Shown: positions 15,203-33,969 of the stretch, piece after piece
How the letters are laid out: each line of letters begins with the position of its first letter
Position numbering within the stretch: position 1 is the stretch's first letter
DNA from: Acidobacteriota bacterium
GTDB taxonomy: Bacteria; Acidobacteriota; UBA6911; RPQK01; G965218465
Length of the DNA: 64,000 nt
Reading direction: 5' to 3'
Assembly: GCA_965218465.1 (NCBI GenBank)
Contig: OZ244623.1
Location: 2,868,097-2,932,096 of the forward strand
Notes under the pieces: model-generated
Database searches by the model: none
Told to the model about the DNA's origin: nothing
The model's input: only the letters and a program-made list of their open reading frames with translations
Translations under genes and position numbers: made by a program

Positions 15203-15520
15203 ATGGCCAAGACACGGGACATTACACCAGAAGACATTGTGAACCGGCTGATGCAATTTATCGTATTCCAACGCGGACAATTGTTGGCAGTCCGGGACAT
15301 CCTAGTGCCGATAATCGAGACCTTGCCGGACGCTCAGCTGCAAAAGTTATTTGAGGAAGTACCCAGAGGAGTGAGCCGCGTAGAAGAGAGCCTACGACAA
15401 GAAGGTCCGATGAGCTCAGACCCCGAAGTGATTGGGGAACTGGGCAGGGGATACGAGGATCTCATGCAGTCGCTATCAGACGCCATTAGTCTTCGGAACC
15501 CCGTCAAAACTGCCGGATAA
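15203..15520 (+). CDS. hypothetical protein
   Basis: 105 aa from MAKTRDITPEDIVNRLMQFIVFQRG...; helical, protein-like composition; no motif recognised. Confidence 0.35.
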   Translation: MAKTRDITPEDIVNRLMQFIVFQRGQLLAVRDILVPIIETLPDAQLQKLFEEVPRGVSRVEESLRQEGPMSSDPEVIGELGRGYEDLMQSLSDAISLRNPVKTAG

Positions 15521-15870
15521 ACTCACTTCATTTTACCAATCTCGCCTGGGCCGCCAGAAGGGGAGGCTCAGCCCCTGGGAGCAGGCTCGTAGGGTCAGGG
15601 GGAAGGAAGGGAGGGGGCAAAGGGATGGTCGTAGATCCAACTGGGAACCGGCACTTCAATGATAGAATCCAGGAGATCACTGTCAGAGAACTATTGGCCG
15701 TTCAGAAACGTCTGCACAGTTCCCATCCGAAGTTCGTGAGGCGCCGGTGGTCCTTCAGTAGGCCGGAGAGAAGGGCACAGTCACGATTTCCAATTCTAAC
15801 TTCTCACGGGGCCACTTGGACCCAGTTCCTCCGAAGTCCAGGTGCCCCTCTTAGCGAGCCACCGCCGGAA

Positions 15871-18048
<2,178 letters not shown>

Positions 18049-18587
18049 TTACGTTGCATGCCCGGAATGTCGCAGGCATCTAGGAAGAAAATACGATTTT
18101 CTCTCGTGCCCAGGCAAGGGGAATATGACGGGAAATGGCGCAGGTTTGGGTGTTTGCCCTTCGCAGTAGCCGTGCTGGTCACCCTATCGGCGGCCTTGAT
18201 GCCGGGGGACCACCAAACCGGTTGAGGAGTCGAAGGCGGCGGACTGCGATACGAGCGCTTTACCTGCGGCCATCGCCTGGGGTGGGCGGCCCCGCTCGCT
18301 CGGGCGTTTGCCGCCGCATCAGCGGCTGGCCAGCCGGTGGCGGTCGGCTGCGGATCATAGCCGCCCTGACCGATTCGGCCTCCATCCAGACCTAACCGGA
18401 GGGGGCAGGGCTGCCGGCGGCGCCCCGCCGAGGGCCCCGCCACAGGGGCAGTTCGAGTTCGCCGCTTGACCTCCTCCGCGATTGGCCCCCTGCGCCGTGA
18501 ACGGTACGGGAGAGTACACCCTCAAGTACCAGATTGACCCGTGAAACGCGCCGCGATGCTGGTCAGGAGCCGGCGTTCCCGACCTAC

Positions 18588-19939: not shown

Positions 19940-20797
19940 TCAGTTTGCGGCGCTCCGCTCGGAGAGGAGCCTTTTATCGACGTCGACCAACCAATGCCGA
20001 CGCTTTTCCTGCGGGAGAGTTGTAAAGTGCCTAAGCGCAATCCCGTCGCGAATATCGCCGCAACATCTCACCTCTCCATCGGGAAGGATGGCGATATCGC
20101 CAGAATCATAGGCTGCGTGACAATACGCACACAGACATATCCCGTTTGCGGGATTTGCCCTCTGGCTTTTATCGGATGCATAGCTTCGGATATGGGCAGC
20201 ATCGAGCACGGACGGAAGTTGAGTTCCACAAACTAGGCAGGTGTACTCGTGGCGCGACAGGACTATGGCGCGGAACACGCGCATACGGCTGCGACGTCTC
20301 ACAAGGGACCATGCATCATCCACGTGCCAATCGGCCTCATTCATCTGGACCGCCGGGGCCTTCGCTTGAAAAGCGGAATCCAAAGCTGCGTCGAGGAGAC
20401 GAACAAACAGATCTCGTTCTAATTGAGGCATCGAAATCGACCAGCCGATACTGTTCAAGTCTTTCGGGAGTCCGATTGACAACCGATTATGTCTACCAGG
20501 CTTGGTGCGCGTCGAAAGATCAAATAGTTTCGGAAACCAAACAACGTCCGCAAGATGCGCCGTGAACAGTCGCGTGACCTTCGCGCTTCGCCGTTCTCCT
20601 TCATTGGCCGGCCGTTGCGTCACCTTCGACACGCGTCCAGCTCCGGCCAAACCATATTGCGGGCCACTTTTCTTGAGATAGATAAACTCGTCTCCAGCTT
20701 GTACTTTTACCGAATGAGTATTGTCATAGACATACTGTTTGCCGGGAATGTCGGGGTAACTGCTTTGATCTGAAACCTTGAATATCCAGTAGCTCAT
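19940..20797 (-). CDS. HNH endonuclease with N-terminal PUA/EVE-like putative modified-base reader domain (type IV restriction-like)
   Basis: C-terminal HNH motif (YTCLVCGTQLPSVLDAAHIRSYASDK...NGICLCAYCHAAYDSGDIAI). N-terminus MSYWIFKVSDQSSYPDIPGKQYVYD...GDEFIYLKK...GAGRVSKV resembles the YWLxK/GD..FYH/G.G.V layout of EVE/PUA-like domains, assigned tentatively. The start is 4 bp after the vsr stop. Confidence 0.6.
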   Translation of the reverse strand: MSYWIFKVSDQSSYPDIPGKQYVYDNTHSVKVQAGDEFIYLKKSGPQYGLAGAGRVSKVTQRPANEGERRSAKVTRLFTAHLADVVWFPKLFDLSTRTKPGRHNRLSIGLPKDLNSIGWSISMPQLERDLFVRLLDAALDSAFQAKAPAVQMNEADWHVDDAWSLVRRRSRMRVFRAIVLSRHEYTCLVCGTQLPSVLDAAHIRSYASDKSQRANPANGICLCAYCHAAYDSGDIAILPDGEVRCCGDIRDGIALRHFTTLPQEKRRHWLVDVDKRLLSERSAAN

Positions 20798-20801
20798 CGT
20801 C

Positions 20802-21224
20802 TCACCGGCGAGACTGTCCGGCCCGCTTTCTGACCACTTCTTCGATGCGGTCCACACAGGATTCCGCATCCCGCTCCACCTCATGCTCCCAGATGCGGAT
20901 GACTAACCATCCCTCCCGTCGGAGCTTATTGGAGGTTCGCCGATCCCTGTAGCGGTTGCCCTCGATCTTCTTCCTCCAATAGGGGTCGAGTTTGTGCCTC
21001 CACCGGGAGAACTGCCAACCGTGCCAGAAGTCGCCGTCGACGAATACCGCGACTTTCGCACGTACAAAAACGAGATCAGGCCGTCCTGGAAGTCCGTTCT
21101 TGTGTTTACGGAACCGTAGGCCGCGCGCATGCACAAACCTGCGAATCGTCAGTTCGGGAGTCGTGTCCTTGCTTCGGATGCGGGACATCGTGAAGCTGCG
21201 TTGTTCCGGCGTCAGGTTGTCCAC
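20802..21224 (-). CDS. vsr: very-short-patch repair endonuclease (T:G mismatch nicking, 5mC deamination repair)
   Basis: 140 aa with the Vsr signature KDTTPELTIRRFVHARGLRFRKH...LPGRPDLVF...KVAVFVDGDFWHGW. Confidence 0.8.
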   Translation of the reverse strand: MDNLTPEQRSFTMSRIRSKDTTPELTIRRFVHARGLRFRKHKNGLPGRPDLVFVRAKVAVFVDGDFWHGWQFSRWRHKLDPYWRKKIEGNRYRDRRTSNKLRREGWLVIRIWEHEVERDAESCVDRIEEVVRKRAGQSRR

Positions 21225-21248: not shown

Positions 21249-22415
21249 CTAGCCAGCAGCATCGTCCTGCGGAAGTCTCCAAACGGCAGTCCATGCCTTG
21301 TCAACTCGGATCAACGGCGCGTCCCTGTCCGTCTTCATCTGCCGTCCATGGACTACGCGGACAGCGTCCCCGACGTCGGGCAGATCCATGTCGTCCATTC
21401 TCATCCATTTACTTGGAATCTGCTCGATTGAAACGCGTTGTCCAAACACTGTCCCGGCCTGCCTCGATAGGACCAAAGTCGTGAGCGAGACGCCCTGAAC
21501 CTGTCGGCTCTCTATCTCAGCAATGTTCCCCTCCACGTGTGATCCGCAGTCCGTAGCCCATTCGGGTTGCGCTTCAGTCCAGAATGGACCACAGAATGGC
21601 AGACATGGGCAAAACGAGCAATTGCCGGGAGACGGAGAGGCGAGATCTCGGAAGGAAGCTCCCTCGGAGACCGCGGCATTAAATCTACCAAGCTGTTTCT
21701 TCGCACAGTCGGCCTCGGCCTCGGCCTCGGCCGGCGAAATCGCGAATTCACAGCGCTGTCCGTCACCTCGTACAACCGCACCCGTGCTTACGTCTGTTCC
21801 GTTCTCTGCGGCAATATATGCGTACAGTCGAAGTTGGCGCGCCTCAGAATCGGACACAATACCCCCCTCGGCTTCAGACATATGCCCTGTTTTGTAATCT
21901 ACAACTACGCCGGCCCGGCCGTCGATATAGTCGGCCCGGCCGACGACCCGGCCATCCCTCGAACTAAGACGGGATTCCGTCCTCACTGCTGGAGAAGCTA
22001 ATCTCGCCGCTTCAGCGGCAGAACTGGCCGACGGCATTCGAGACAAAGCGATGGGAGTTGCCGTAAGTGCAGCCCGTTCGCGGTTCAGGTGGTAGAAGGG
22101 CAGGCGGTCCGCAGAGGGGAACTTCAACTTGACCAAGCGGTGGGCGCCCAGATGAAGTTTCTGCGCCGTCTTGTCGAACAGCCGCCTTGCCGGAGAGCGG
22201 TCGCTGACGGCTGCCACCGGGAGCTCCCCTCTATGCGCGGCCGCCACAACCACATGGAAAGCCGTTCCTAGGATCGCCGCCGGGTGCTGAGGCAGAACAC
22301 CGACATCCCCAAAAGCGAACCATGCCGCCTTGGCGAGGCAGTGTATGCTGGCTTCATAGATGCTCGGTGTAATGCGCTTGAGCTGAGCTAGAAGCGGCGG
22401 CTCCGGGACGATCAT
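21249..22415 (-). CDS. RecB-family PD-(D/E)xK nuclease with Cas4-like C-terminal Cys cluster
   Basis: Motifs GRADYIDGRAGVVVDYKTG (motif II/III, hhhDYKTG) and QLRLYAY (QxxxY). C-terminal CSFCPCLPFC is a putative Fe-S/Zn cluster as in Cas4/AddB nucleases. Confidence 0.65.
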   Translation of the reverse strand: MIVPEPPLLAQLKRITPSIYEASIHCLAKAAWFAFGDVGVLPQHPAAILGTAFHVVVAAAHRGELPVAAVSDRSPARRLFDKTAQKLHLGAHRLVKLKFPSADRLPFYHLNRERAALTATPIALSRMPSASSAAEAARLASPAVRTESRLSSRDGRVVGRADYIDGRAGVVVDYKTGHMSEAEGGIVSDSEARQLRLYAYIAAENGTDVSTGAVVRGDGQRCEFAISPAEAEAEADCAKKQLGRFNAAVSEGASFRDLASPSPGNCSFCPCLPFCGPFWTEAQPEWATDCGSHVEGNIAEIESRQVQGVSLTTLVLSRQAGTVFGQRVSIEQIPSKWMRMDDMDLPDVGDAVRVVHGRQMKTDRDAPLIRVDKAWTAVWRLPQDDAAG

Positions 22416-22430
22416 GCTGTCATCAACTCC

Positions 22431-25400
22431 TCATTCATAAGGAAACCGAACAGCACGAAATACTGACCGCAGAGTCACGCTAAAGCCCTGCCCTTGCGCG
22501 TCTGAAACGGCGGCGGCCACCTCCGGGCGGAAGTTGGACGAATCCGTGTCCCAAAGCGGGTGGGTCAGGATAATGGCTTCATTGTTGAATGGATCAACTC
22601 CTCCGGACAATGCATCGAAGGTCCTCGTCTTCATTTGGAGGCCCTCGAAATAGGTCGGAGCAATACGGGCGACAAGATCGGACCAGTGGCTTGTGGTGAG
22701 ATCAATACGGGCGTTAGGATCAAGGGCCAGTTGCGCCATGTCGAGCCCCAACCTCCAGTCGAGTATTGGGTGAAAGGCCATGTTTCCGAATTCACGAAGA
22801 CAGCGGTGGCAAGAATTGACACAGTCATGGCTGTGCGGCGGCGTCACGAGCAGTCGATGAAACGAGTCGGGTGGAGTGCTCCGCGTCCAGGAGGGGCGCG
22901 CCTGCCCTAGGACAAACCGGAGGAGTTCTTCGAAGCGGACGGAGTCTCCTAGGAACGTGCTGTATCCAGCTCCGTTTTCCAGGTTGTCGGAGATGAAGAT
23001 GCGGGCGGTCGGTGGCGCGAACGGCGTGGAGAGGTCGGCAATAGGCTGGATTCCGAGGTCGAGTTCAGAATCATTTACGTCGAGGCTGACTGCGGCGGCC
23101 CGCCGGACAAGGAATCCGAAGGAATACCATGCGGCCTTCGCCTCCGGCTTGGATGGATTCAGGCAGAGTCCCACTGAGACAACGTTGATTCCGGCAGCCA
23201 TGACATCCGTATTGGATATGGCGCCAAGAGCACGCCGGACTCCGGGCGTCGCCGAATCGAACGACGGCCGTTGAATCCGTCCCCGCTCGGCGGCAGGAAG
23301 GTCGCGAAGAGCACTATCGAACGCTTCCTCAACCATCCAGAAATTTTGATTCGCTAGCTTTCGGAATTCGAAGTCGCTCCCATCGTTGTCGTTGATGCGG
23401 TAGATTCTGGCGGAGCCGCTGTCGATGCTGAAGTTTCTGTGAGTCCTGTAGTTGTCCAGCCCAGCCCCCATGCGGGCCCTCAAGGCCCTGGGCGTGAATT
23501 GGAAGCCACCCCGAAACTCGGCGCGGTCGGATATCGTCCACCAAGTGCTGAATCCAGGAGGTTCGGTCAATTCCGCTAGTCGATAGCCGTCCGGTCCGTG
23601 CGCGGCCGAACAATATGGGCACCTACCCGACTGCTCAGGCTGGGTAACCAGGGCCTGGCATCGACGGCATACGCCAACAATCTCTGACTCTCCGAGTGGA
23701 TTCGGCGCCAGGGCGACGCCCCCCATATCGGGGACGAATTCAACCACTCCGACGGCCGTGTGAAGCTTGTCGTCTTTGATTGACTGTGCACCAGGCGCAA
23801 ACTGGCTGATGGCGATGTCAAGTTCGCGGTCGATAATCCCGTACTGAGGAGGCCAGCGGATTGGTTGCTTATGATGCAGGAGGCGCGTTCGCGTCGGGAA
23901 GCCAAACATTGGAAGTACACCGTGGGAGGCCAAACGTTCGCTAAGCGCATGATGCGTGTTGCTGCTGCCGGCGATTTCATCGATCCGGTCGAGCAACTCC
24001 GTTTTGACGTACTGGGTGATGCTCGTAACGCCAGCCGTGTTGTCCATTGCAGTTCGACGCAGAATGTGGTGTCCGATGTCCTCGATAAATAGTCCGTTGA
24101 CAGCAATCCAGTCTGAGACGGTCTGTCGATAACCGGACCACTTCCCGACGGTTCCAAACTCTCCATGAACATTCTCGCCTGAGTGCTCGATCTCGATGCC
24201 TTCAAACGAATGCCGAAGTACTTCTTTGTTGACGACTCGCTGCGCGATTTCCGGCCGCGAAACATCCACATACGGGCGAGGTGGCGGCTCAGCTGTAATT
24301 AGATGAGGCCGTTCAAAATAATAGTCATCGTGGCTGCGGCCCCGGCAGAGCGTCAATGCTGCTGACATTCCAAGACCCCTCCGTCCGGCACGTCCGACCC
24401 TCTGCTGGTAGTTGAAACGGATGGGGGGCATGTTCGCCATGCCGATCATCTGCAGCGATCCGATGTCTACGCCCGCCTCCATGGTTGTAGTGACGCTGAG
24501 GAGGTCCACTCCGAAGGCCTTTTCAAGTTCTCGATCAAGGAAGATCTCCTGGAACCATCTCTGTCGGTCGATGCGGTCGTCACGGTCCGTCTGTCCAGTG
24601 AGTTCCTCGCAGTTGAGGCGAAACGGATCGTCGTTGCATCGAGCCAGGTATTCATAGAAGTCCATTTCGCTGGCGTCCGAAGCCGTGGGATGGCGATGCG
24701 GCGCGTTCGGAAGCCGATTCCGGCAGACCGTACAAATACCGCCGGACGCATGCAGGTGGACGGAACCGCATCTTTGGCAAGAGAAGACATCGATGCACAC
24801 GTCCGTTCCAGGGACGGGGGTCAACACGTAAAGGCGTTGCGGGACAACCAGCCATTGATCCACGGCGTCGCTCAACAGAGTTAGGATGTCCTCCAGCAAT
24901 GTAGCTGCGTCGAGCCCATTGAGATCGGCGACGGCCTGAGCGTACCGGCGGATGTCTCGGGGCGCTTGAAGTCTGCCGTCCGACGCCGGAGTCCAACGGA
25001 ATCTCTTTGCTAGCATTCTGACTATGGAAGCCGCCGCGCACTCCTGCACAGTAGCTGGCCCCGAGTCATTGATCCAAAGGAGCCCAAGCCTCAGCGACTC
25101 GAAGTCACGGCTTCCCCCTGCGAAGAGAACGTCGTTTATGACGGAGCGCAACAACTCGGCTTCAATTCGATCCCGCAACTCCTGCTCAACCGGCTGAAGG
25201 TCCAGCCGATATCTGTGCTGCTCCACGTTCCAGTCGAAGATGTCCGTCCAAGGGATCGTCGTTGTCTGCCACTTATACTCCCTTACGCCTGGCAATGGCC
25301 CACCCGGATTTATCCCGATTCGTAGGAGCGACTCTCGCACGAAATCCACAAGGGCGTTGAACGACATGCTGCCGAAGCCGGTAGGCGGCGAGGGGCGTTG

Positions 25401-27962
25401 TAACGATCCCTTAGACCCGGCAAGCTGCATGACACGGCCGACGACTCCGGCCTCAAGTGTCTGGATGAGCTCTTGAAGGCGGCTCATCTCAGCCGCGTCG
25501 AGGGATTGCATATTCTGTTTCCGGACAAGCATTAGGAGTTCACATGACTGTTGGTATGACTCCATGGACCGGGCGTATTCGGATTCGGAGTTTTCAATCT
25601 GCTTCATGAGACGGCGGAACACTGTCTGCCGGACATTGTCCAGATAGTGTGCGTGTTTGATGCCGGTGGACAGCTTTGCAGCGTCTTGGCGGCTGTCCGA
25701 GAAAAGGACGAGCTTTCGCCTCCTGGAATCGGGGATCTCCCGCATCATGCCGTCACTCAAGAGCTGCATGACGCGCTGGAAGCCGGAGCCCAGATCGCGG
25801 ATAGGGGACTCAATTCGCCGCCGCGACCAGTCGTCTCCGCAGTGCGGGCACTTTCTAGGAAAGGCGTTTGCTTCGTCATCGGTGCTGTTGAAGGCGAAGC
25901 CGACCGATTCCTGCGCCCGCGCGTTTCTTGATCTCATTTCATAGGTCAGGCGGCCGGGAATCGATTGAAGGGCGGCGGGATGCCAACGGTGGCTGCCGTC
26001 CAGCCACCTCCATTGCGGGCCGGCATGCGTTGATCGATAAATCGGCCGCCCGTTAGCAGGCCAGAAGACGAGATATTCTCCGAACTTCCTGTTGAGCGAG
26101 GCCGATCGGTCAGGGACCTGATCCAAGTTCGGATAGTCGGGAGACAGAAACCAAGCATTCGGGGAGTTGGGGTCCAACTTCTTGTACCCCCCGAGGAACA
26201 CCTCTCCGCACGGCTGGCAGTATAGCAGTTCGAGAACACGGGACCCGCAAGAATCACAGCGGGGCACCGGGTCGGCAAACAACCGCCCGACCGGAGGAGT
26301 ATCTTGACCGGTTGGCGTTGTCGCCGTGCGGCCTGAGCAACCCGGGTTTACACATGCCCAAATTCTTCCCGCATTATGGAAGAAGTAATGAATGCGAAAC
26401 GGTAGCGGAGCAACCATACTCCCTGGCTCTGCACCCGGTATGCGAGCATGGATCAAGCCACGGACGAGTCCGCGTGTGGCTGCAATATCGGCATTAGAAG
26501 TGTTGCCAAAAACTATAGATGAAAGACGCTCAAGGGTCAGCGGCTCATTCTCACAAGCCGCCCGCAACGGCTCAAGAGCATGAATCTCCTTGTAGCCACG
26601 TGCGAAAACCTCGGCCGGTTTACCGATTGTCTCGGCCCCAACCACAGACGCAAATTCCCTCGCGGCCTGATCAAGTGGAATCGAATCTAAATTATTGTTA
26701 AGAGAGGAGAACACTCTTGCGTACGGCAGCATCCCGGAGCGCGGGGCCGGAAACTTCCGTTGCCGGCCTGAGAGTATCTCGAACGAGCCTCCATCACGGC
26801 CGAAGAACTGCTCCAGGTAAGTACGGCTCTGGTCGTCGTTGCTTATAGACGCGCTGGTCGCAATGATCCTTAGTTGCGGCGAATCCGGATCGAGGCCGAT
26901 TCGATGCAGGAGCGCCCGGAGCAGGTAACCCACCTCAGTTCCTGGCGTACCCCGGTACGTGTGCAGTTCGTCTACAACCAGATGGAACACATGGTTACTG
27001 CGGTCTGCCTCCAACCACGCCTTTGTCAGATCGAAAATGTTGCTTTCGAGCTCCCGCATCAACATGATGTTCAGCATGCTGTAGTTCGTAATCAAGATGT
27101 CCGGTGGATGGCTCTGCATGTCCCACCTCGACCACATCTCTGATCCCTCCGGATTCTGAAAGTAGTGCAGGATGTCGTCCGATCCTCGCGTGGCTGCAGA
27201 CGCCTGTGCGCGTCCCCAATTGCAGTCCATTTCAAGCAGCCGCCTCTTGAGTTCAGCTCGCTTGGGGGGGCTCTCCTCGGTCCCGGAAACAGGGGCGACG
27301 GCGTTGTACCGACCGAACCAGAAATGATGCTTGGCGAATGGTCCTGAGAACCACTGCCTTGCCTCTTCATTGTCGCAGGCTTGTCGGATGCGGCCCAGTT
27401 GGTCCTCGATAAGCGCGTTCAGGGGATACAACATCAGCGCACGCACGGCGCACGGACGGTCCACGGATTCGTGCCCCCGTTGTGGAATGCGGGGTTGATA
27501 TGGATGCCTCCACCACATGTGTCTGGTGGGCACAGAGGATTGTGTCCCCCACCCGCGCATGAGGTCCTCGACCAAATAGGCGAAGATCGGCAGCAGATAG
27601 CATTCGGTCTTACCGGAGCCCGTTCCTGTCGTCACGACAACTGAGCGCCCGGCGCGAGAATGCCGCCATGCGTCAACTTGATGTTCATAGAGGGGAATTT
27701 CAGCCCGGAAAAGCCCGCGAGTGATGAAGTCAGCAGCCTCGGTGGGAACGCCCAGACGTGCGCATGTCTTTTCGACGGTCAGTTCGGAGCTCTCGTACGG
27801 AGGAACCGGCTCGATCAGAGGTTCGCGAAATAGTCGGCGGTCCTGAAATAGAAGGCGGCGCCTTTCCTCCCGAAGAGCGTCGTAGCGCAACCGGAACGGG
27901 CTGTCGAGATACCGCTGGTATGCAAGTTGAATCTCCTCGAACACCTTAAACGGATCGTTCAT
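22431..27962 (-). CDS. giant SF2 DExH helicase with internal Zn-ribbon insertion and C-terminal DUF1998-like (MrfA-type) Zn-binding domain; Druantia DruE-like / DISARM DrmA-like
   Basis: 1843 aa. Walker A VVVTTGTGSGKTE (~aa 105). DExH HLVVDELHTY (~aa 330). Motif III IATSAS. Motif VI QQRVGRAGRRG only at ~aa 1175. Between the RecA lobes lie CxxC pairs (CDSCGSR...CQPCGE; CPHCGDD; CQRCGS...CTVCRN). C-terminal CRRCQAL...CPYCSA and CVNSCHRC form a DUF1998-like tail. Confidence 0.75.
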   Translation of the reverse strand: MNDPFKVFEEIQLAYQRYLDSPFRLRYDALREERRRLLFQDRRLFREPLIEPVPPYESSELTVEKTCARLGVPTEAADFITRGLFRAEIPLYEHQVDAWRHSRAGRSVVVTTGTGSGKTECYLLPIFAYLVEDLMRGWGTQSSVPTRHMWWRHPYQPRIPQRGHESVDRPCAVRALMLYPLNALIEDQLGRIRQACDNEEARQWFSGPFAKHHFWFGRYNAVAPVSGTEESPPKRAELKRRLLEMDCNWGRAQASAATRGSDDILHYFQNPEGSEMWSRWDMQSHPPDILITNYSMLNIMLMRELESNIFDLTKAWLEADRSNHVFHLVVDELHTYRGTPGTEVGYLLRALLHRIGLDPDSPQLRIIATSASISNDDQSRTYLEQFFGRDGGSFEILSGRQRKFPAPRSGMLPYARVFSSLNNNLDSIPLDQAAREFASVVGAETIGKPAEVFARGYKEIHALEPLRAACENEPLTLERLSSIVFGNTSNADIAATRGLVRGLIHARIPGAEPGSMVAPLPFRIHYFFHNAGRIWACVNPGCSGRTATTPTGQDTPPVGRLFADPVPRCDSCGSRVLELLYCQPCGEVFLGGYKKLDPNSPNAWFLSPDYPNLDQVPDRSASLNRKFGEYLVFWPANGRPIYRSTHAGPQWRWLDGSHRWHPAALQSIPGRLTYEMRSRNARAQESVGFAFNSTDDEANAFPRKCPHCGDDWSRRRIESPIRDLGSGFQRVMQLLSDGMMREIPDSRRRKLVLFSDSRQDAAKLSTGIKHAHYLDNVRQTVFRRLMKQIENSESEYARSMESYQQSCELLMLVRKQNMQSLDAAEMSRLQELIQTLEAGVVGRVMQLAGSKGSLQRPSPPTGFGSMSFNALVDFVRESLLRIGINPGGPLPGVREYKWQTTTIPWTDIFDWNVEQHRYRLDLQPVEQELRDRIEAELLRSVINDVLFAGGSRDFESLRLGLLWINDSGPATVQECAAASIVRMLAKRFRWTPASDGRLQAPRDIRRYAQAVADLNGLDAATLLEDILTLLSDAVDQWLVVPQRLYVLTPVPGTDVCIDVFSCQRCGSVHLHASGGICTVCRNRLPNAPHRHPTASDASEMDFYEYLARCNDDPFRLNCEELTGQTDRDDRIDRQRWFQEIFLDRELEKAFGVDLLSVTTTMEAGVDIGSLQMIGMANMPPIRFNYQQRVGRAGRRGLGMSAALTLCRGRSHDDYYFERPHLITAEPPPRPYVDVSRPEIAQRVVNKEVLRHSFEGIEIEHSGENVHGEFGTVGKWSGYRQTVSDWIAVNGLFIEDIGHHILRRTAMDNTAGVTSITQYVKTELLDRIDEIAGSSNTHHALSERLASHGVLPMFGFPTRTRLLHHKQPIRWPPQYGIIDRELDIAISQFAPGAQSIKDDKLHTAVGVVEFVPDMGGVALAPNPLGESEIVGVCRRCQALVTQPEQSGRCPYCSAAHGPDGYRLAELTEPPGFSTWWTISDRAEFRGGFQFTPRALRARMGAGLDNYRTHRNFSIDSGSARIYRINDNDGSDFEFRKLANQNFWMVEEAFDSALRDLPAAERGRIQRPSFDSATPGVRRALGAISNTDVMAAGINVVSVGLCLNPSKPEAKAAWYSFGFLVRRAAAVSLDVNDSELDLGIQPIADLSTPFAPPTARIFISDNLENGAGYSTFLGDSVRFEELLRFVLGQARPSWTRSTPPDSFHRLLVTPPHSHDCVNSCHRCLREFGNMAFHPILDWRLGLDMAQLALDPNARIDLTTSHWSDLVARIAPTYFEGLQMKTRTFDALSGGVDPFNNEAIILTHPLWDTDSSNFRPEVAAAVSDAQGQGFSVTLRSVFRAVRFPYE

Positions 27963-27978
27963 GGGTCTATTTCACTCG

Positions 27979-28875
27979 TTAGGGCAGGACGGTAACTCCA
28001 GGGTGCGGTTGACCGGCGGCGACCATCAGCAGAGCGGCCACTTCGGGGGTTACATCGAAGTAGACAAACCGTCCGTCAATTAATTGCGCAGGACGGCACG
28101 CACAGAGACATGCGGCTCGGGAATATAGTGCTGGCATCGGTGCGAACAACGGCACACTCAACTCCAGGGAATGAGGCTCGTAATCAATCAGACGAACCCC
28201 CTTCAGCATGGCAGCCGCATAGAGGGACTCCCGCTTGGGCATCCTCAACAGCTTCCCGCTTCTTCTGCGAACGTAGTATTGGGGTCGGCCGTAGGTGGGC
28301 GTAAACTCACACGCCGCATTCGGCAAAAGTCCGTCGACCCACGCGCGTATGCCAAGGTCGAAGAACCGGGCCTTCCAGTTTAACGGGGCTGGTTCCTGAG
28401 CCGCGGCCTCGAATACGCATGGAATGGGAGGAACGTTTTCCGCAATTCGTCTCCCGTTATCAGGTTGATAAGCCACTCCAATGTGGCTGGAGATTTCGGC
28501 AATCACCCGCCTTTCACCAACGACACGGAAGGATGTCGGACAGTCCTTGAGGGCTTCCTCTTGGAGCTTGCCTCCATGCACTTTAGCCCCGTTCCTTAGC
28601 GCCTCGACAAGAGCAGGAGTGCGTCTTCCATAAAGGACGGCAGCATCCGCCTGGGCGGCAAGGCCTCCAAGGACGGGCGGCAGCATGTTCCACCGCTGAG
28701 AACCATCTACAAAAAAATCGGTGAAGCCGAGATCCGACAAACCAACTCTCAGTGCGCGGGACAACTCCAGCGGATCACGATCTCCACTTACAATCTCCTC
28801 AGCCGCCTTTCGAAACCTTATCCATGACCCCTCTCCCAAGTGGGTCATCCATGTCAGTAACAGATCGCAGTTCAT
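27979..28875 (-). CDS. hypothetical protein (positionally DruG-like)
   Basis: 298 aa with no recognisable motif. Its start overlaps the upstream gene's stop by ATGA (translational coupling). A 17-bp gap separates it from the helicase gene. Confidence 0.5.
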   Translation of the reverse strand: MNCDLLLTWMTHLGEGSWIRFRKAAEEIVSGDRDPLELSRALRVGLSDLGFTDFFVDGSQRWNMLPPVLGGLAAQADAAVLYGRRTPALVEALRNGAKVHGGKLQEEALKDCPTSFRVVGERRVIAEISSHIGVAYQPDNGRRIAENVPPIPCVFEAAAQEPAPLNWKARFFDLGIRAWVDGLLPNAACEFTPTYGRPQYYVRRRSGKLLRMPKRESLYAAAMLKGVRLIDYEPHSLELSVPLFAPMPALYSRAACLCACRPAQLIDGRFVYFDVTPEVAALLMVAAGQPHPGVTVLP

Positions 28876-31800
28876 TGGGGCTTCTTGAGTTTCCGCTTTA
28901 TGTTCTTCGCCAATGCGGCGTATTTCTTCCAGCCGTCAACGATGCCTTCATCGGGGACAGCCCCGTTCAGTCCAACGAAGCGCGGGCGGCGGATGTGCGC
29001 CTCGTAAACGACGGTGCTCCACTGCTCGATTAGCTTCCGAGTTTGCACCGTTAGCCTGCGAAGGGTGAGCATTCGTGGTGGACTTGGATAGGAAGCAACC
29101 GCGACCACCGCGCCAGGGCCTGCACCCACTCGGATGGCCCAACTGGGATGGAATGGACATGACGCGATAGTTCCCTGGAAAAACTCTTCGTCTGAGTAGC
29201 AGACCTGGTCCGGCGAGTTGCCTATCAAGGTCCATGAGCCATGCGGCAAGGCAATCCTTCTGCTACGGTCAGCATCGAGCGATTCATGAAGTTCAGTCTG
29301 GCTCTGGACAGACAGTTGCGGCCGTTCTATTGCAATTCTCCTTCGCATGCTACCCGCCTCGACGAGATATTCGCCGGGCTCAGAGAAGACCCCTTCCGCC
29401 AGCAACTCACCGCTCGCATCAACTCCCACCGATGCGCCGTTCACCTTTATACGGTCTCGTGCCTCCATGCCGGACACTAGGATTCGCGGCGGGGCTCCCG
29501 TGAGCCATGACCAGCGGCGTCCTAGCCGCAGGCCACCCGCAACGATCAATTTAATTTTTCGATCGACTTCCAACGCCTCAAGAGTAGCGGGCGCTTCGAC
29601 ATGGACGCGTGCCGAAACATCGCGGAACATGGACCAACCGTTCGGCAGCAGTGGGTGTGATACCGGGCTCAGCAAGCCTTGCGCAACTTCGCTCAGGTAG
29701 TCTTTCACTATGGGGACAATGTTGTCGCAGCATAGAACGGAGCACCTGACACCACGCAGCAGGCGTCGGCTCGATAGAAAACCGCTGTAGCTTGATGACG
29801 GTGTGAAAGGAATGGCCAACGCCCCAGAGCGCCTCAGCGTAAAGTCGATGCCTCTTGCATGCGACAACCACTCGAAGCCGCTTTCCAAAAGTTCTCCATC
29901 CTCCGAACGGAGTTGCGCGGGGTCGTACCACCCTTCGTCTGATGCCTCGAACACCCGCTTCCCGTCCCCGAACACTTTAGGAAATCCGGGAGGCCGCCGA
30001 GGCAAGTAGAAGAAAACCGGGCTCCTCTGGACAACATCGAACTGAATCTCGACCAGTGCGCTACGCCTGCTGGGCGACTCGCAAAAGCTTCCGTCCCATG
30101 CTTCCAATTCAGCACTCGCTTGGGCAGAAATGGCGGCGGAGCGGTCGTCATAAAGGGCACTCGTAGCGGTTGGCGTAAGCATGTTCCGTGACTGTTGCCA
30201 CCGCCTCAAATCGGAGAGCAGGCGGTCATGCCGGACCCGGGCTCCAGGCTGGTATCCCGCCCAAGAAAAGAACACCGGGAGCTTCTCGATGTCCAAGGAC
30301 CGAAGCGGAACGTGCGTCAACGGCAACGCAACGAACCGCCTGAACCCCGTGTCGCTTTTCGGCATCGCAAGCTGGCGCCTATGTGCTTTACGAAGCCAAG
30401 TGTGCAGGAACACCCAAAGCGACTCGAACACCGCTGGATTAAATCCGGGAGGGTGTGCTCCGTGCATTTCACACTTGAGGAGGTCCGCCAAGCGCCTGTA
30501 GTAGGCGTTTCCCGACAACTCTTCGTCGGACTGCATGCGAAATGCAGCAAGGACCGAACCTGCGAGGAAGGCCGCGCAGTCAGGGGAGCCGTCGGCACTG
30601 CATCGACGCAGCACACGAAGCCGCGCGCTGTGTTGAAGAACATGCCCCTGATAAAGGTTCGCAACCGCTGTTGTGAACTGCTGCTCTGCCTGCTCAGGCG
30701 TTATTGGACCCAAGCCGGCCTCCTCGAACACTCTCGCCAATATGCGGGGGTTGACGCACAAGAGAGCTTCTTCTGAGGATGGGCCCGCAAGCAGCAATTG
30801 CTCGACAACAGCGGTGTTCCAGCGGGCATACTCATGGTCGACCGCGGAAACGTCCTGGACCGCCACTAGATATTCATGTGCATCCTCTGGAAGTGTTAGC
30901 TGACGTGGAGATGGATCTCTCCAGTCATCGGCGGTCGCCCACACGTCTTCTTCTGTCGGTTTCTGGGGCTCTTCTTCGGCCTGCGGACGATCCATACATC
31001 CCGACTCCGATTTGCCCACACCCACTGAGGTGGTCCTGTGCGCCTCCGGCGACGCATCTCGTCCGCATCGGTTCTCGTTTAGTAGACTTGCTGGGCTTGT
31101 GGACAAAGTACCGGCGGATGCGTCTTCCGCAGTCCGCTCACCAGCGTTTGGAGAGGATATGGTGGTTATTCCCTTGTGTTGGACATCAAGGGGCGGATGA
31201 GGATCGGAGCGAGGAGCCACCTCATCTATTTGAGACGTGTCCTCGTGGACAGATCTGTGGTCCACACCGCTGTCGCCTGCACCTGCGACTTCTGGGCGTG
31301 CCGAATCGTCCCCGTCCTCGTTCCCATTGGTCATTCTGCCTTCTCGGACAGTACACGGCGTGGCCGCTTCATGACCAGTTTCGACGTTTCTCGGCGGTTC
31401 CTCAGCCGACGACTCGTCGACTCCCATTTGTACTGGGTAGCGCGTTGGATCGTGTTCCATTGCCTCATCGACCGAGACGATTTCTTCGCCGAAGCCTCCT
31501 TCAGAGCTAGGTCCAGATTCAGAGCCGGGGTTCGCGTCTCGTATCGGCTGCTTCTCCTGCACCAATGGCTTCGGAGTTTCTGTTGCGACGGTTTCAGAAT
31601 CCGTTTCTCCTTCGGTAACGCTCCCAACCTGAATGGGTTTAACAGACTCTTCAACCTGGGATTCCTCAAGCGTATTAGTCGATCCTGCCTCGATCGGTTG
31701 ATCGCTCAACTGGTCACCGCTCCCGTCATCGGTTGACGCTAGCGCGGATTGGTGGACGCCGGGTTGGTCTTTGTCAGGCGTCAGTGATGCTTCAGAAGCG

Positions 31801-31919
31801 AGTCCGAACCGAGACAACACGGAGAGTAACGCCTTCAATATTTGTGCGGTGATCCGTCCCAAGTCAGAGTTCCAGCAGGAATTCGCCGATTGCCTTCGAC
31901 ACAAGCGGACACACCGCAT
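28872..31919 (-). CDS. large hypothetical protein with ~330-aa acidic low-complexity N-terminal region and ~680-aa C-terminal globular domain (positionally DruF-like)
   Basis: 1015-aa ORF. N-terminal third is D/E/S/T/P-rich (…EESQVEESVKPIQVGSVTEGETDSETVATETPKPLVQEK…). A more likely start is GTG at 31820, because the ORF's first 56 bp overlap the methyltransferase gene. The stop overlaps the next gene's ATG. Confidence 0.5.
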   Translation of the reverse strand: MRCVRLCRRQSANSCWNSDLGRITAQILKALLSVLSRFGLASEASLTPDKDQPGVHQSALASTDDGSGDQLSDQPIEAGSTNTLEESQVEESVKPIQVGSVTEGETDSETVATETPKPLVQEKQPIRDANPGSESGPSSEGGFGEEIVSVDEAMEHDPTRYPVQMGVDESSAEEPPRNVETGHEAATPCTVREGRMTNGNEDGDDSARPEVAGAGDSGVDHRSVHEDTSQIDEVAPRSDPHPPLDVQHKGITTISSPNAGERTAEDASAGTLSTSPASLLNENRCGRDASPEAHRTTSVGVGKSESGCMDRPQAEEEPQKPTEEDVWATADDWRDPSPRQLTLPEDAHEYLVAVQDVSAVDHEYARWNTAVVEQLLLAGPSSEEALLCVNPRILARVFEEAGLGPITPEQAEQQFTTAVANLYQGHVLQHSARLRVLRRCSADGSPDCAAFLAGSVLAAFRMQSDEELSGNAYYRRLADLLKCEMHGAHPPGFNPAVFESLWVFLHTWLRKAHRRQLAMPKSDTGFRRFVALPLTHVPLRSLDIEKLPVFFSWAGYQPGARVRHDRLLSDLRRWQQSRNMLTPTATSALYDDRSAAISAQASAELEAWDGSFCESPSRRSALVEIQFDVVQRSPVFFYLPRRPPGFPKVFGDGKRVFEASDEGWYDPAQLRSEDGELLESGFEWLSHARGIDFTLRRSGALAIPFTPSSSYSGFLSSRRLLRGVRCSVLCCDNIVPIVKDYLSEVAQGLLSPVSHPLLPNGWSMFRDVSARVHVEAPATLEALEVDRKIKLIVAGGLRLGRRWSWLTGAPPRILVSGMEARDRIKVNGASVGVDASGELLAEGVFSEPGEYLVEAGSMRRRIAIERPQLSVQSQTELHESLDADRSRRIALPHGSWTLIGNSPDQVCYSDEEFFQGTIASCPFHPSWAIRVGAGPGAVVAVASYPSPPRMLTLRRLTVQTRKLIEQWSTVVYEAHIRRPRFVGLNGAVPDEGIVDGWKKYAALAKNIKRKLKKPQ

Positions 31920-33969
31920 TGGCCAGTTGCTGCTGCTTGTGCATCAAACCGCCGGATTGACCGTCCACGGTGCCCGCAAACCGAAACCAGTCGGGGAACG
32001 ATTGAAGCCGGCTTGCCTCACGCAGCGATAGCCCACGATTCTGCTCCGGATGAATGAGCATGCTTTTCCGATAGTGGCCGATCGTAATAGACGGCTCGTC
32101 CCATTCCAACCGTCGATAGATGTTGCTGTGGGTCCGCTTCACCTGCGAGTAGTTCGACATCATTTCCACTATGTCCTGCCAATTCCCCCCGGCAGGGATT
32201 CGTTTGTAGCGTTCGATAACATAATCGGTATGGCGTGACGTGATGTGGTCTAGAATATTTGTCTTGGGTGCGCTGTTACGCATCAGCGTTAGAAATTTAT
32301 TGCCCTCCCCTGTCGCAGGTTCACAATAGTCAATTTCATCCAAACCATGACCGTTGCCGATTGGTGGCAAATCGCCAATCGCCCCGCGGACCGTTACGAA
32401 CGAACGTCCTGCAAGGGGACCGTGGGTGGGGGTCGGAAAAGGGCCCCAGTCACCAAAGTCGTCCACGGAATAGCCAGCGTCCCTATGGATTCCCAGAACA
32501 AAAAAGCGCGTTCGGAATTGGGGCACACCGTACCAGACTGCATCCAACAGCTTTGGAAAAGTCATGTACCCAGCCAATTTCATCCGCTCAACAATGTGTT
32601 CCGCAACACTGGGCTGGATTTCTGACTTGCCGTTCCTTGCAGTCCATGCAATTCCCTGCACATTCTCAATCAAAAACACCGAAGGATTCAATTTCTCGAC
32701 ATATCTCATGAAAACGGTGACCATTTGATTCTGCGGATTAGTGCTCGACCACGAATTGCGGTTTGCACTAGAGAACCCTTGGCAGGGTGGACCTCCAACA
32801 AGAATGTCGACACCCCCCGCCTCAATCGCCTTGGATGCGACCAGTTCTAGTATCTTTCGGTCGTTAAGGTCGAACGGTTCAATGGACTCTGGAACGAAAT
32901 CACGCCACTTTGATTTTTGCATTCCAACTAGGCAGCTATGAGTATTTCTGAGGGTTTGAATGTAGATCGGATGAAGTTCCCCTGCGAAAACAAGCCGAAA
33001 CCGCCTCTTGGGATGTTTAGACATTAAGAATCCGAGTCCCATTCCCCCAGCGCCAGCAAAAAGCTCTACGACGTTGAGCACATTCGCTCCGGCGAACTTC
33101 GCACCACGGGGCCTACTTTCCGAACAGACAGTGTTCGAATCGCCTTCCGAAGATTTGTCCTGAAGCCTTGCGAGAGTAATGTTTGATCGATATCGCAACA
33201 TTAGGCCGGGCCCGTTATTCAGGGCTTCTCCTTCGTGCGACAGGCTTGGAGGCTTGCGCAAATTTCTTTCTTGTCGTCGGACGAGGGGCCTAATCCATCG
33301 GACCCAACCAATGTATCGGACAAGATCTTCAAGTGGAGTAGCGCGCAGCGAAGTCAGTCCGATAATCGTTCCTGGATGCAGTCCTACAATGCCGCCTGTC
33401 TGAGCCACAAACAGGCGTGCCGTTGTGTCGTCCGGCAAACATACTTTCGCTAGATCAGCTACCGAAAATCGCATGGAAGATGTTCCGTTGCCCGGAGCAA
33501 CCTCCACATCCCGCCACACCGCACCCCCTAACGTATCTGCCGCTCTTTGTTTGACCCACTTTCCGCGTTGTGCACACTCAACTTCGTGACTTGGTCGGAT
33601 TTCAAGGATAAAGTCTAGTCTCTTTTCAACCAGAGACTTGATGAACGAAAAACTGCTACCATAGGAGGCCCCTGCAACAATAACCGGGTCCCCTCCTAGT
33701 CTATTGCACCTGCTGAGCAATCCGAGTGCTACCGTTTGCTTGTATTCCTTTGTTCCCGTCTCCGCCTGCCGTCGCGCCACCTGTGCCTTACCGTAGACTT
33801 TCTTCCATTTGCCTTCGACGATCTTGTGCACACGAACTGTGACCGACGGATCGCCTTGGCCGCGCTGTAGTCCCAGAATTGGGCGTCGGTTTGATCTCGC
33901 ACTGTCGTCTTCTACCAGCAAGATGATGCCCAAGTTGGTTTGCGTCAAAAGGGGCCTTACATTCGACAT
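31864..33969 (-). CDS. DNA (cytosine-5)-methyltransferase with ~290-aa N-terminal extra domain (DruM-like / Dcm-like)
   Basis: C-terminal ~410 aa carry motif I LFAGAGGMGLGF, motif IV ILVGGPPCQGFSSANR, motif VI FLIENVQG, and motif IX/X region (ASRLQSFPDWFRF, QLANAVCP). The N-terminal domain (…GGDPVIVAGASYGSSFSFIKSLVEKRLDFILEIRPSHEV…) is unassigned. Confidence 0.8.
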   Translation of the reverse strand: MSNVRPLLTQTNLGIILLVEDDSARSNRRPILGLQRGQGDPSVTVRVHKIVEGKWKKVYGKAQVARRQAETGTKEYKQTVALGLLSRCNRLGGDPVIVAGASYGSSFSFIKSLVEKRLDFILEIRPSHEVECAQRGKWVKQRAADTLGGAVWRDVEVAPGNGTSSMRFSVADLAKVCLPDDTTARLFVAQTGGIVGLHPGTIIGLTSLRATPLEDLVRYIGWVRWIRPLVRRQERNLRKPPSLSHEGEALNNGPGLMLRYRSNITLARLQDKSSEGDSNTVCSESRPRGAKFAGANVLNVVELFAGAGGMGLGFLMSKHPKRRFRLVFAGELHPIYIQTLRNTHSCLVGMQKSKWRDFVPESIEPFDLNDRKILELVASKAIEAGGVDILVGGPPCQGFSSANRNSWSSTNPQNQMVTVFMRYVEKLNPSVFLIENVQGIAWTARNGKSEIQPSVAEHIVERMKLAGYMTFPKLLDAVWYGVPQFRTRFFVLGIHRDAGYSVDDFGDWGPFPTPTHGPLAGRSFVTVRGAIGDLPPIGNGHGLDEIDYCEPATGEGNKFLTLMRNSAPKTNILDHITSRHTDYVIERYKRIPAGGNWQDIVEMMSNYSQVKRTHSNIYRRLEWDEPSITIGHYRKSMLIHPEQNRGLSLREASRLQSFPDWFRFAGTVDGQSGGLMHKQQQLANAVCPLVSKAIGEFLLEL

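What the first reader, a model, noticed from the sequence alone, without database searches (positions are those of the whole stretch)
30900..31919. Long acidic intrinsically disordered N-terminal region (~330 aa) on the 1015-aa operon protein
Residues ~40-330 are dominated by D/E/S/T/P/G with no hydrophobic core (…DDGSGDQLSDQPIEAGSTNTLEESQVEESVKPIQVGSVTEGETDSETVATETPKPLVQEK…). Composition turns globular only from ~aa 335 (…LPEDAHEYLVAVQDVSAVDHEYARWNTAVVEQLLL…). Such long polyanionic tails are unusual in bacterial defence proteins. It could act as a DNA mimic or as a flexible tether. The real start is uncertain: ATG 31919 overlaps the methyltransferase gene, and GTG 31820 lies 43 bp after its stop.
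Basis: seen in the sequence. Interest (0 to 1): 0.5.

Follow-up and report, generated by a model that had tools for sequence, protein, structure and literature searches.

The report
Disordered acidic leash on DruF
The acidic, structure-free N-terminal third of this phage-defence protein (DruF of a Druantia type IV operon) is real, translated and widespread in its family, and because it always begins with a short basic amphipathic or transmembrane helix it most likely works as a long flexible leash holding the defence complex at the cell membrane.

Summary
Residues 41-335 of the 1015-codon ORF have 64 D+E against 21 K+R, 58% D/E/S/T/P/G and 16% hydrophobic residues. AlphaFold2 gives pLDDT about 26 and no secondary structure for residues 20-325 of the corrected protein.

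The region is translated. In all 15 related loci from about ten phyla this frame is stop-free for 748-1162 nt, while every other frame has 1-35 stops.

The start is TTG 31862, 1 nt after the DruM stop; homologues carry ATG, TTG or GTG at that column. The protein is 996 aa.

Of 84 distant DruF representatives with a full-length domain, 64 carry an extension of at least 100 aa. These open with a similar basic amphipathic helix or with a clear transmembrane helix followed by an R/K cluster. The two helix types interchange at least 7 times on a tree.

Best reading (inferred, about 0.55): membrane anchor, then a polyanionic disordered tether, then the DruF domain. This resembles FtsY, SepF and ZipA. 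A rigid DNA mimic is not supported. I found no published description for Druantia.

The parts
28872..31862 (-). druF gene as corrected: TTG start at 31862-31860, stop TGA at 28874-28872, 996 aa
   Evidence: PADLOC DruF2/DruF4 hits, E 1.7e-36 to 2e-11, to residues ~353-788 of the 1015-aa ORF. The start column aligns with Met1 of most homologues and reads ATG, TTG or GTG across loci, 1 nt after the DruM stop.
31800..31862 (-). N-terminal basic amphipathic helix (residues 1-21, MGRITAQILKALLSVLSRFGL); proposed membrane-binding anchor
   Evidence: AF2 helix at residues 2-18, pLDDT 79 and 69. In 34 homologues, positions 4, 5, 8, 9, 11, 12, 15, 16 and 19 are at least 91% hydrophobic, and positions 2, 3, 7, 10, 13 and 18 are 48-81% K/R. 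Hydrophobic moment 0.62. dN/dS 0.13-0.36. The same position is a TM helix in at least 10-14 distant DruFs.
30888..31799 (-). Acidic intrinsically disordered region (residues 22-325 of the 996-aa protein); proposed flexible leash
   Evidence: Composition. pLDDT below 50 and no secondary structure. 23% mean pairwise identity, length 172-364 aa, and net negative charge in 33 of 34 close homologues. dN/dS 0.55-0.84. No in-frame stops in 15 loci against 1-35 stops in each other frame. No tandem repeats.
30816..30914 (-). Conserved junction motif PSPRQLTLPEDAHEYLVAVQDVSAVDHEYARWN (residues 317-349) between the disordered region and the DruF core
   Evidence: Conservation rises from 0.28 to 0.72-0.83 per 10-residue block here. 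Y345, W348 and N349 are invariant. Short DruF forms start only at the ..Y..WN part.
28875..30845 (-). DruF globular core (residues ~340-995): a helical N-terminal half and a beta-rich C-terminal half; function unknown
31864..33969 (-). druM-like C5 cytosine DNA methyltransferase (701 aa), immediately upstream. Its stop TGA at 31866-31864 lies 1 nt before the druF start.
   Evidence: Pfam DNA_methylase 8.4e-44, residues 299-696. PADLOC DruM/MTase_II. Junction CTCTGACTTG.
27979..28875 (-). druL (298 aa). Its ATG overlaps the druF stop (ATGA).
   Evidence: PADLOC DruL4 1.6e-20; it also matches the C-terminal third of the long DruF2 profiles. Overlap read.
22431..27962 (-). druE (1843 aa) helicase
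   Evidence: PADLOC DruE4, 1779 bits. Pfam DEAD and Helicase_C.
21249..22415 (-). druK (388 aa), PD-(D/E)XK nuclease
   Evidence: PADLOC DruK 2e-22. Pfam PDDEXK_1 5.3e-14.

Best explanation
The segment is the translated N-terminal module of DruF in a DruM-DruF-DruL-DruE-DruK operon of Druantia type IV kind. It has three parts. The first is a 21-residue basic amphipathic helix. The second is a polyanionic, intrinsically disordered chain of about 300 residues. The third is a conserved proline-rich and acidic junction leading into the DruF core. Proposed mechanism: the helix lies on the cytoplasmic face of the anionic inner membrane, and in other family members a real transmembrane helix does this job. 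The disordered chain acts as a long leash that sticks to neither the membrane nor DNA. The leash keeps the DruF core, and through it probably DruL, DruE and DruK, confined near the membrane, where foreign DNA enters. Shown computationally: the region is translated, the start codon is TTG 31862, the region is disordered, its composition and the helix pattern are conserved, and TM and amphipathic helices interchange at the same position. Inferred: membrane binding, recruitment of the other Dru proteins, and any benefit for defence.
For: Translation and start. There are no in-frame stops over 748-1162 nt in 15 loci from Acidobacteriota, Terriglobia, Kerfeldbacteria, Chloroflexi, Hyphomicrobium, Latescibacterota, Pirellulales, Gemmatimonadales, Blastocatellia and others, while the five other frames have 1-35 stops each. 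The start column alternates between ATG, TTG and GTG directly after the DruM stop. Codon-position GC periodicity runs in this frame.

Disorder. See (pLDDT; composition).

Pattern of selection. dN/dS is 0.13-0.36 for the helix, 0.55-0.84 for the disordered region and 0.21-0.29 for the core. Sequence identity in the disordered region is 23%, yet net charge is negative in 33 of 34 close homologues, with a median of -0.135 per residue.

Anchor. The amphipathic pattern is strictly conserved, with K/R on the polar face. Among 64 distant DruFs with extensions of at least 100 aa, 31 start with basic amphipathic helices and at least 10 (about 14 by eye) start with uncharged 19-residue stretches of Kyte-Doolittle mean 1.97-2.81 followed by R/K clusters, which implies N-out, C-in topology. 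One protein classed as 'other' proved to be a miscalled start that hides the same helix. TM-type DruFs sit in true DruF-DruL-DruE-DruK operons. On a tree of the core domain, the TM state needs at least 7 changes.

Precedents for the architecture. FtsY has an N-terminal lipid-binding helix followed by a highly charged A domain (PMC3128533). SepF has an N-terminal amphipathic helix, a long disordered linker and a core domain, and ZipA has a TM anchor (10.1101/2022.08.26.505433).
Against: There is no experimental localisation for any DruF. The window's helix has a Kyte-Doolittle mean of only 1.36 and contains K and R, so it is not a TM segment; amphipathic helices also serve as protein-docking peptides. 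No dedicated TM or amphipathic-helix predictor was available; the classification used my own thresholds, and 23 of 64 N-termini were unclassified. Sixteen to 18 of the 84 DruFs lack the extension entirely yet sit in the same operon type, so the module is dispensable for the core function. dN/dS of up to 0.84 in the disordered region is close to neutral. The neighbour-joining tree is crude.
Confidence: 0.55

Rival explanations
1. The N-terminal helix is a docking peptide for a protein partner (DruE, DruL, DruM or a host protein). The disordered chain is a fly-casting linker that lets DruF capture or release that partner. No membrane is involved in this clade.
For: The conserved short helix, variable linker and folded domain match the standard tethered-motif layout. 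AF2 predicts the helix confidently. druF is translationally coupled to druM and druL.
Against: The same position holds unambiguous TM helices in at least 10 homologues, with repeated interchange, which a specific protein-docking motif would not tolerate. Presence of the extension does not track with DruM: short DruFs also follow a DruM gene, and TM-type operons place the methylase elsewhere.
Confidence: 0.2
2. The polyanionic chain is an intramolecular DNA mimic or autoinhibitor. It occupies the DNA-binding surfaces of DruF, DruL or DruE until displaced by phage DNA or a phage protein, much as acidic tails do in other DNA-binding proteins.
For: Net charge is -0.146 per residue over 294 residues, conserved in sign in 33 of 34 close and 62 of 64 distant homologues. 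The partner DruE is a DNA helicase.
Against: No folded, rigid arrangement of charges is predicted. Charge density falls to a median of -0.07 per residue, with several distant homologues near neutral at -0.013 to +0.03, while length and anchor persist. The idea does not explain the conserved basic or TM helix. Short DruFs work in the same operon type without it.
Confidence: 0.12
3. The chain is a largely neutral spacer, or a fast-evolving surface with no mechanistic role of its own. It is kept only because it links the N-terminal helix to the core, or it drifts under an arms race with phage inhibitors.
For: dN/dS is 0.55-0.84, identity is 23%, and in-frame indels of 1-62 aa occur between close relatives. 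The extension was lost or gained about 7 times.
Against: Composition is far from what the DNA would give by chance (z about 8) and is maintained across phyla. Length stays within 172-364 aa in the close clade.
Confidence: 0.1
4. The acidic region is not translated. It is an untranslated leader or intergenic spacer, and DruF starts near residue 330-360 of the 1015-aa ORF.
For: PADLOC profiles begin matching at residues 353-364. One database entry, P0010, starts near there. Weak GGAG and AGGA motifs precede ATG 30995 and GTG 31025. GC3 is lower than in the core.
Against: The frame is open in 15 of 15 loci, and none of 2000 shuffles is stop-free. A conserved helix under purifying selection sits at the far 5' end of the frame. 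No start codon is conserved near the boundary. No promoter-like or terminator-like site and no Rfam match lies in the region. P0010 has an out-of-frame N-terminus, which indicates a frameshifted contig.
Confidence: 0.02

Closest known systems
Druantia type IV (DruE-DruF-DruL; PADLOC, Payne et al. 2021, PMC8565338)
   Same: DruE4 (1779 bits), DruF4/DruF2, DruL4 and DruK profiles all hit adjacent co-oriented genes. The same gene order is conserved in 15 loci.
   Different: Type IV was defined as lacking DruM, but a DruM-like C5 methyltransferase lies directly upstream and is translationally coupled here. The PADLOC DruF4 profiles (678-703 positions) do not include the helix plus disordered extension. 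No paper in the searched library describes that extension.
E. coli FtsY N-terminal A domain
   Same: A lipid-binding amphipathic helix at the very N-terminus is followed by a highly charged region that precedes the functional domain, and the module supports membrane association (PMC3128533).
   Different: There is no sequence relationship. FtsY has a second, essential lipid-binding helix at the junction between the A and N domains. DruF's junction is instead a P-rich and acidic motif. DruF's membrane binding is untested.
SepF and ZipA (membrane anchors of the Z-ring)
   Same: SepF has an N-terminal amphipathic helix, a long disordered linker and a globular core. ZipA has an N-terminal TM anchor. 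Together they parallel the two DruF variants (10.1101/2022.08.26.505433).
   Different: The mycobacterial SepF linker carries basic stretches that themselves bind the membrane. The DruF linker is strongly acidic and should be repelled by it. The biological processes are unrelated, and there is no homology.
DNA-mimic proteins such as Ocr and ArdA (from general knowledge, not tested against a library)
   Same: A high density of D and E residues, in a phage-defence context.
   Different: Those proteins are folded, with carboxylates placed to copy the DNA backbone. Here no fold is predicted, and the charge density is not conserved across the family.

Membership tests
Druantia type IV (PADLOC definition) | DruE of the type IV subfamily | tested here: met
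   PDLC00051 DruE4, E = 0, 1779 bits, residues 1-1841.
Druantia type IV (PADLOC definition) | DruF homologue adjacent to DruE | tested here: met
   Nine DruF2/DruF4 profiles hit, with E from 1.7e-36 to 2e-11, covering residues ~353-788 of the 1015-aa ORF.
Druantia type IV (PADLOC definition) | DruL present | tested here: met
   PDLC00057 DruL4, 1.6e-20, residues 2-281 of the 298-aa product.
Druantia type IV (PADLOC definition) | Lacks the type II proteins DruM and DruG (PMC8565338) | tested here: not met
   A DruM-like C5 methyltransferase (PDLC00033, 1.4e-58; Pfam DNA_methylase) lies directly upstream. It is conserved in all loci that reach that far. No DruG was seen. The locus is therefore a methylase-carrying variant of type IV.
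Druantia type IV (PADLOC definition) | Protects against phage | not testable with these tools
   No experiment was possible, and no experimental paper on type IV was found.
Anchor, disordered linker and globular domain architecture of membrane-tethered proteins (FtsY A domain, SepF, ZipA); an architecture, not a homologous family | N-terminal amphipathic or transmembrane helix | tested here: met
   The test is computational only, using my own hydrophobicity and hydrophobic-moment thresholds.
Anchor, disordered linker and globular domain architecture of membrane-tethered proteins (FtsY A domain, SepF, ZipA); an architecture, not a homologous family | Long intrinsically disordered linker | tested here: met
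   pLDDT below 50 for residues 20-325 with no secondary structure. Composition.
Anchor, disordered linker and globular domain architecture of membrane-tethered proteins (FtsY A domain, SepF, ZipA); an architecture, not a homologous family | Demonstrated membrane association | not testable with these tools
   This needs cell fractionation, microscopy or liposome binding.
Anchor, disordered linker and globular domain architecture of membrane-tethered proteins (FtsY A domain, SepF, ZipA); an architecture, not a homologous family | Sequence homology to FtsY, SepF or ZipA | tested here: not met
   No Pfam family hits the whole protein at E <= 1e-3.
DNA-mimic proteins | Folded scaffold that presents carboxylates in a DNA-like geometry | tested here: not met
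   No structure is predicted for the acidic region. No structural match was found.
DNA-mimic proteins | Binds the DNA-binding site of a target protein | not testable with these tools
   This needs competition binding assays.

The most novel reading that the evidence does not exclude
Druantia type IV (with DruM) is a spatially confined immune system. A polyanionic disordered leash anchored in or on the inner membrane keeps the DruF-DruL-DruE-DruK machinery in a shell some tens of nanometres thick under the membrane and repels it electrostatically from the nucleoid. Incoming phage DNA would then be met at its point of entry, and confinement would add a layer of self/non-self discrimination on top of methylation. 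The fast-evolving leash could also be a target or decoy for phage counter-defence proteins.
Probability: 0.15. Interest if true: 0.8.

Novelty: new variant of a known kind. Interest (0 to 1): 0.5.

Why it matters
DruF has no known function, no Pfam family and no solved relative. Druantia types II and IV are mechanistically uncharacterised; recent structural work covers only DruH-DruE of type III. A conserved module of anchor plus leash gives a concrete and cheaply testable hypothesis about where the system acts: at the membrane. It also corrects the gene model. Public gene calls for this family disagree on the start, and profile models omit the extension. Finally, it shows that a disordered tether of about 300 residues, rare in described bacterial defence proteins, is the majority state in this family (64 of 84 representatives). 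If membrane confinement is confirmed, Druantia IV would join Zorya and other envelope-associated defences.

Tried and rejected
1. Untranslated leader or internal start. Rejected: the frame is open in 15 of 15 loci, none of 2000 shuffles is stop-free, no start codon or Shine-Dalgarno sequence is conserved near residue 330, and there is no promoter, terminator or Rfam hit.
2. Antisense genes. The plus-strand ORFs 30779..31510 and 31176..31736 are chance ORFs: the antisense frames carry 5-7 stops across the region here and 1-19 in other loci.
3. Tandem or low-complexity repeat origin. No tandem repeats were found.
4. The helix docks on DruM. Not supported by gene context.
6. Exact-sequence look-up of the window's protein. 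It is not on record, so the source organism is unknown. The nearest locus is an Acidobacteriota MAG at 78% identity.
7. Searching databases with the 22-aa helix alone. Not attempted, because such a short motif cannot reach significance against billions of sequences.
8. Literature search for DruF, DruL or Druantia IV mechanism. Only the PADLOC definition was found.
Full report
1. What is there

The finding lies in a minus-strand operon. PADLOC and Pfam identify its genes as follows:
- DruM-like C5 cytosine methyltransferase, 33969..31864, 701 aa.
- DruF, the 1015-codon ORF 31919..28872.
- DruL4, 28875..27979.
- DruE4 helicase, 27962..22431, 1779 bits.
- DruK PD-(D/E)XK nuclease, 22415..21249.
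- An HNH protein, 20884..19940.

DruF profiles begin to match only at residues 353-364 of the 1015-aa ORF, at profile positions 2-13. Everything upstream is therefore an extension of the DruF core.

2. Checking the observation

Residues 41-335 contain 64 D+E and 21 K+R, a net charge of -43. D/E/S/T/P/G make up 58% and hydrophobic residues 16%, against 37% and 33% in residues 336-1015.

This is far from what the DNA composition would give by chance. Shuffling the 882 nt gives a mean net charge of +0.094 per residue, against the observed -0.146 (z = -7.9). D+E has z = +8.3.

AlphaFold2, run with a 34-sequence alignment, gives block-mean pLDDT of 24-33 and no secondary structure for residues 20-325 of the corrected protein. 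It predicts a helix at residues 2-18 (pLDDT 79 and 69) and a well-predicted core from about residue 340. The region has no tandem repeats.

3. Is it translated, and from where?

A scan of one genome per species returned 15 related loci. They come from Acidobacteriota, Terriglobia, Ca. Kerfeldbacteria, Chloroflexi, Hyphomicrobium, Bryobacterales, Latescibacterota, Pirellulales, Rhodopirellula, Gemmatimonadales and Blastocatellia. All loci that extend far enough keep the order DruM-DruF-DruL-DruE-DruK, with or without HNH.

Between the DruM stop and the start of the DruF core lie 748-1162 nt. In every locus the DruF frame has no stops downstream of the start. Each of the five other frames has 1-35 stops. 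None of 2000 shuffles of the window's segment was stop-free; the mean was 10.8 stops. Codon-position GC is periodic in this frame (GC1 0.60-0.75, GC2 0.43-0.62). GC3 is lower (0.48-0.58) than in the core (0.57-0.73).

The alignments show that most homologues begin with M at the column of residue 20 of the 1015-aa ORF. At the DNA level that column is TTG in the window, L002 and L006. It is ATG in L001, L003, L005 and L007-L009, and GTG in L004. In each case it lies one base after the DruM stop (…CTCTGAC-TTG…). Such alternation is what a start codon shows. In L007 no in-frame start codon lies upstream of the motif, and in L014 and L015 a stop directly precedes it.

The 19 codons upstream (MRCVRLCRRQSANSCWNSD) are the DruM C-terminus read in another frame.

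No conserved start codon lies near residue 330, and neither candidate nearest the boundary (GTG 30944, GTG 30866) has a Shine-Dalgarno match. Only weak 4-nt matches precede the non-conserved ATG 30995 and GTG 31025. No promoter-like or terminator-like site and no Rfam family lies in the region.

Conclusion: DruF starts at TTG 31862 and is 996 aa. It is translationally coupled to druM. Downstream it is coupled to druL through an ATGA overlap.

4. Anatomy and selection

The extension has three parts.

(i) Residues 1-21, MGRITAQILKALLSVLSRFGL. Across 34 homologues, positions 4, 5, 8, 9, 11, 12, 15, 16 and 19 are at least 91% hydrophobic. Positions 2, 3, 7, 10, 13 and 18 are 48-81% K/R. G20 is nearly invariant. 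The two sets fall on opposite faces of a helix, and the hydrophobic moment is 0.62.

(ii) A hypervariable disordered chain. It is 172-364 aa long in the close clade, with 23% mean pairwise identity against 48% for the helix and 65% for the core. Its net charge is negative in 33 of 34 sequences, with a median of -0.135 per residue.

(iii) A conserved junction, PSPR(Q/R)P.P.EDA.EY.V.V.DVS.VD.EYARWN.

dN/dS between the window and L001, L002 and L003 is 0.13-0.36 for the helix, 0.55-0.84 for the chain and 0.21-0.29 for the core. Indels of 1-62 residues all keep the frame. Selection therefore acts on the helix sequence and on the composition and openness of the chain, and hardly at all on the chain's sequence.

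5. The wider family

An exhaustive HMMER search found 964 relatives at E <= 1e-3. Of 84 representatives that cover the whole core, 64 carry an N-terminal extension of at least 100 aa and 18 have less than 60 aa. The extension is net negative in 62 of the 64, with a median of -0.07 per residue.

I classified the first 50 residues with my own thresholds:
- 31 start with basic amphipathic helices, for example MRSLFRRLIEKLRAFVRSLRSL.
- 10 start with uncharged 19-residue stretches of Kyte-Doolittle mean 1.97-2.81 followed by R/K clusters. Examples are MVIILPILALALGVFFWLLWRRLSATRK and MAGIVFILAAAFLATAAVIAIALRRVRR. These are transmembrane helices, and the positive-inside rule places the DruF core in the cytoplasm.
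- Four more are TM-like by eye.
- 23 remained unclassified. One of these (P0104) proved to be a miscalled start: the open frame upstream reads …WNSD-LADLGKSRFLAAVRRILRRLLRGR.

TM-type DruFs lie in true DruF-DruL-DruE-DruK operons with a methylase nearby (L016 and L020). Short DruFs also follow a DruM gene, with gaps of only 50-150 nt (L018 and L021). The extension is therefore optional and is not tied to DruM.

On a neighbour-joining tree of the core domain, the TM state needs at least 7 changes and presence or absence of the extension needs at least 7. No other protein of the window's operon has a TM-like segment.

6. Mechanism

A TM helix and a basic amphipathic helix repeatedly replace each other at the same position. 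The simplest explanation is that both do the same job, which is to attach the N-terminus to the cytoplasmic membrane. The chain of about 300 residues would then be a leash. Its negative charge would keep it extended and stop it sticking to anionic lipids or DNA.

The layout matches several bacterial precedents. FtsY has an N-terminal lipid-binding helix and a highly charged A domain (PMC3128533). SepF has an amphipathic helix, a long disordered linker and a core, and ZipA has a TM anchor (10.1101/2022.08.26.505433).

I put this reading at about 0.55. It is an inference; nothing here measures membrane binding. The rivals are:
- A protein-docking peptide on a fly-casting linker, about 0.2.
- An acidic autoinhibitory DNA mimic, about 0.12. 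It is weakened by the absence of any predicted fold and by the weak conservation of charge density across the family.
- A near-neutral spacer, about 0.1.
- An untranslated leader, at most 0.02.

7. Comparison with what is known, and novelty

The system meets the positive PADLOC criteria for Druantia type IV (DruE4, DruF, DruL). It carries a DruM-like methylase, which the original definition says type IV lacks (PMC8565338). It is best called a methylase-carrying type IV variant.

The library held no description of DruF's N-terminal module, or of any mechanism for types II and IV. The DruF core has no Pfam family and no informative solved-structure neighbour.

The architecture itself (anchor, disordered tether, domain) is a known kind. 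Its presence as the majority state of a defence-protein family is new. I rate it a new variant of a known kind, with interest 0.5.

Noticed in passing
window 33085..33969 (-), DruM residues 1-295: The methyltransferase carries a 295-aa N-terminal domain outside the Pfam DNA_methylase match. It looks globular. It has only a sub-threshold Pfam hit to DDE_5 (DDE superfamily endonuclease, E = 9e-4, 19.3 bits against a cutoff of 27) and no PDB sequence relative. tblastn finds it in 9 of the 15 related loci, and the methylase of several others lacks it.
   Followed up: partly
window 27979..28875 (-), DruL, compared with PADLOC DruF2 profiles: DruL also matches positions 768-1005 of the 1011-position DruF2 profile (E = 1.1e-15). 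The long type II DruF therefore appears to be a fusion of a type IV-like DruF core with DruL.
   Followed up: no
L003 (Ca. Kerfeldbacteria MAG), L005, L007-L009, compared with window 21249..33969: The whole operon is very similar across distant phyla; for example DruE is 84% identical to the copy in a CPR-bacterium MAG and 75-82% identical to copies in L005 and L007-L009 (Hyphomicrobium, Latescibacterota, Pirellulales, Rhodopirellula). dS is only 0.25-0.83 in the DruF core. This points to recent horizontal transfer, or to mis-binning of some MAG contigs.
   Followed up: partly
window 19940..20884 (-): An HNH endonuclease gene (Pfam HNH_2; PADLOC HNH 3.6e-18) follows druK after a gap of about 365 nt. 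It recurs in the same position in L001, L002, L003, L008 and L009, so it may be a further component of this Druantia variant.
   Followed up: partly
P0010; public gene calls P0001, P0005, P0007, P0009, P0011, P0013, P0014, P0018, P0025: Database gene models for this family disagree on the start. Nine of 37 aligned entries use the upstream ATG inside druM. P0104 was called 39 codons too short. P0010 is 100% identical to the window over the core but begins with an out-of-frame peptide (MSMPAGTPLLSSNCW), which indicates a frameshift in that contig.
   Followed up: partly
L002 8015..8984 and 12715..18232: In the Terriglobia MAG, the DruM and DruE matches are each split into two tblastn pieces in different frames. 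These are either assembly indels or pseudogenes.
   Followed up: no
L016 8798..9019 and L017 493..714: A 73-aa ORF of unknown function overlaps the start of the TM-type druF in both contigs that carry P0132. In that operon variant the methylase lies downstream of druK rather than upstream of druF.
   Followed up: no
L020 14016..14906: In the P0120 locus, a NotI-family restriction endonuclease gene (PF12183) sits next to the methylase beside the Druantia genes. There, DruE and DruK are on the opposite strand from DruF and DruL.
   Followed up: no
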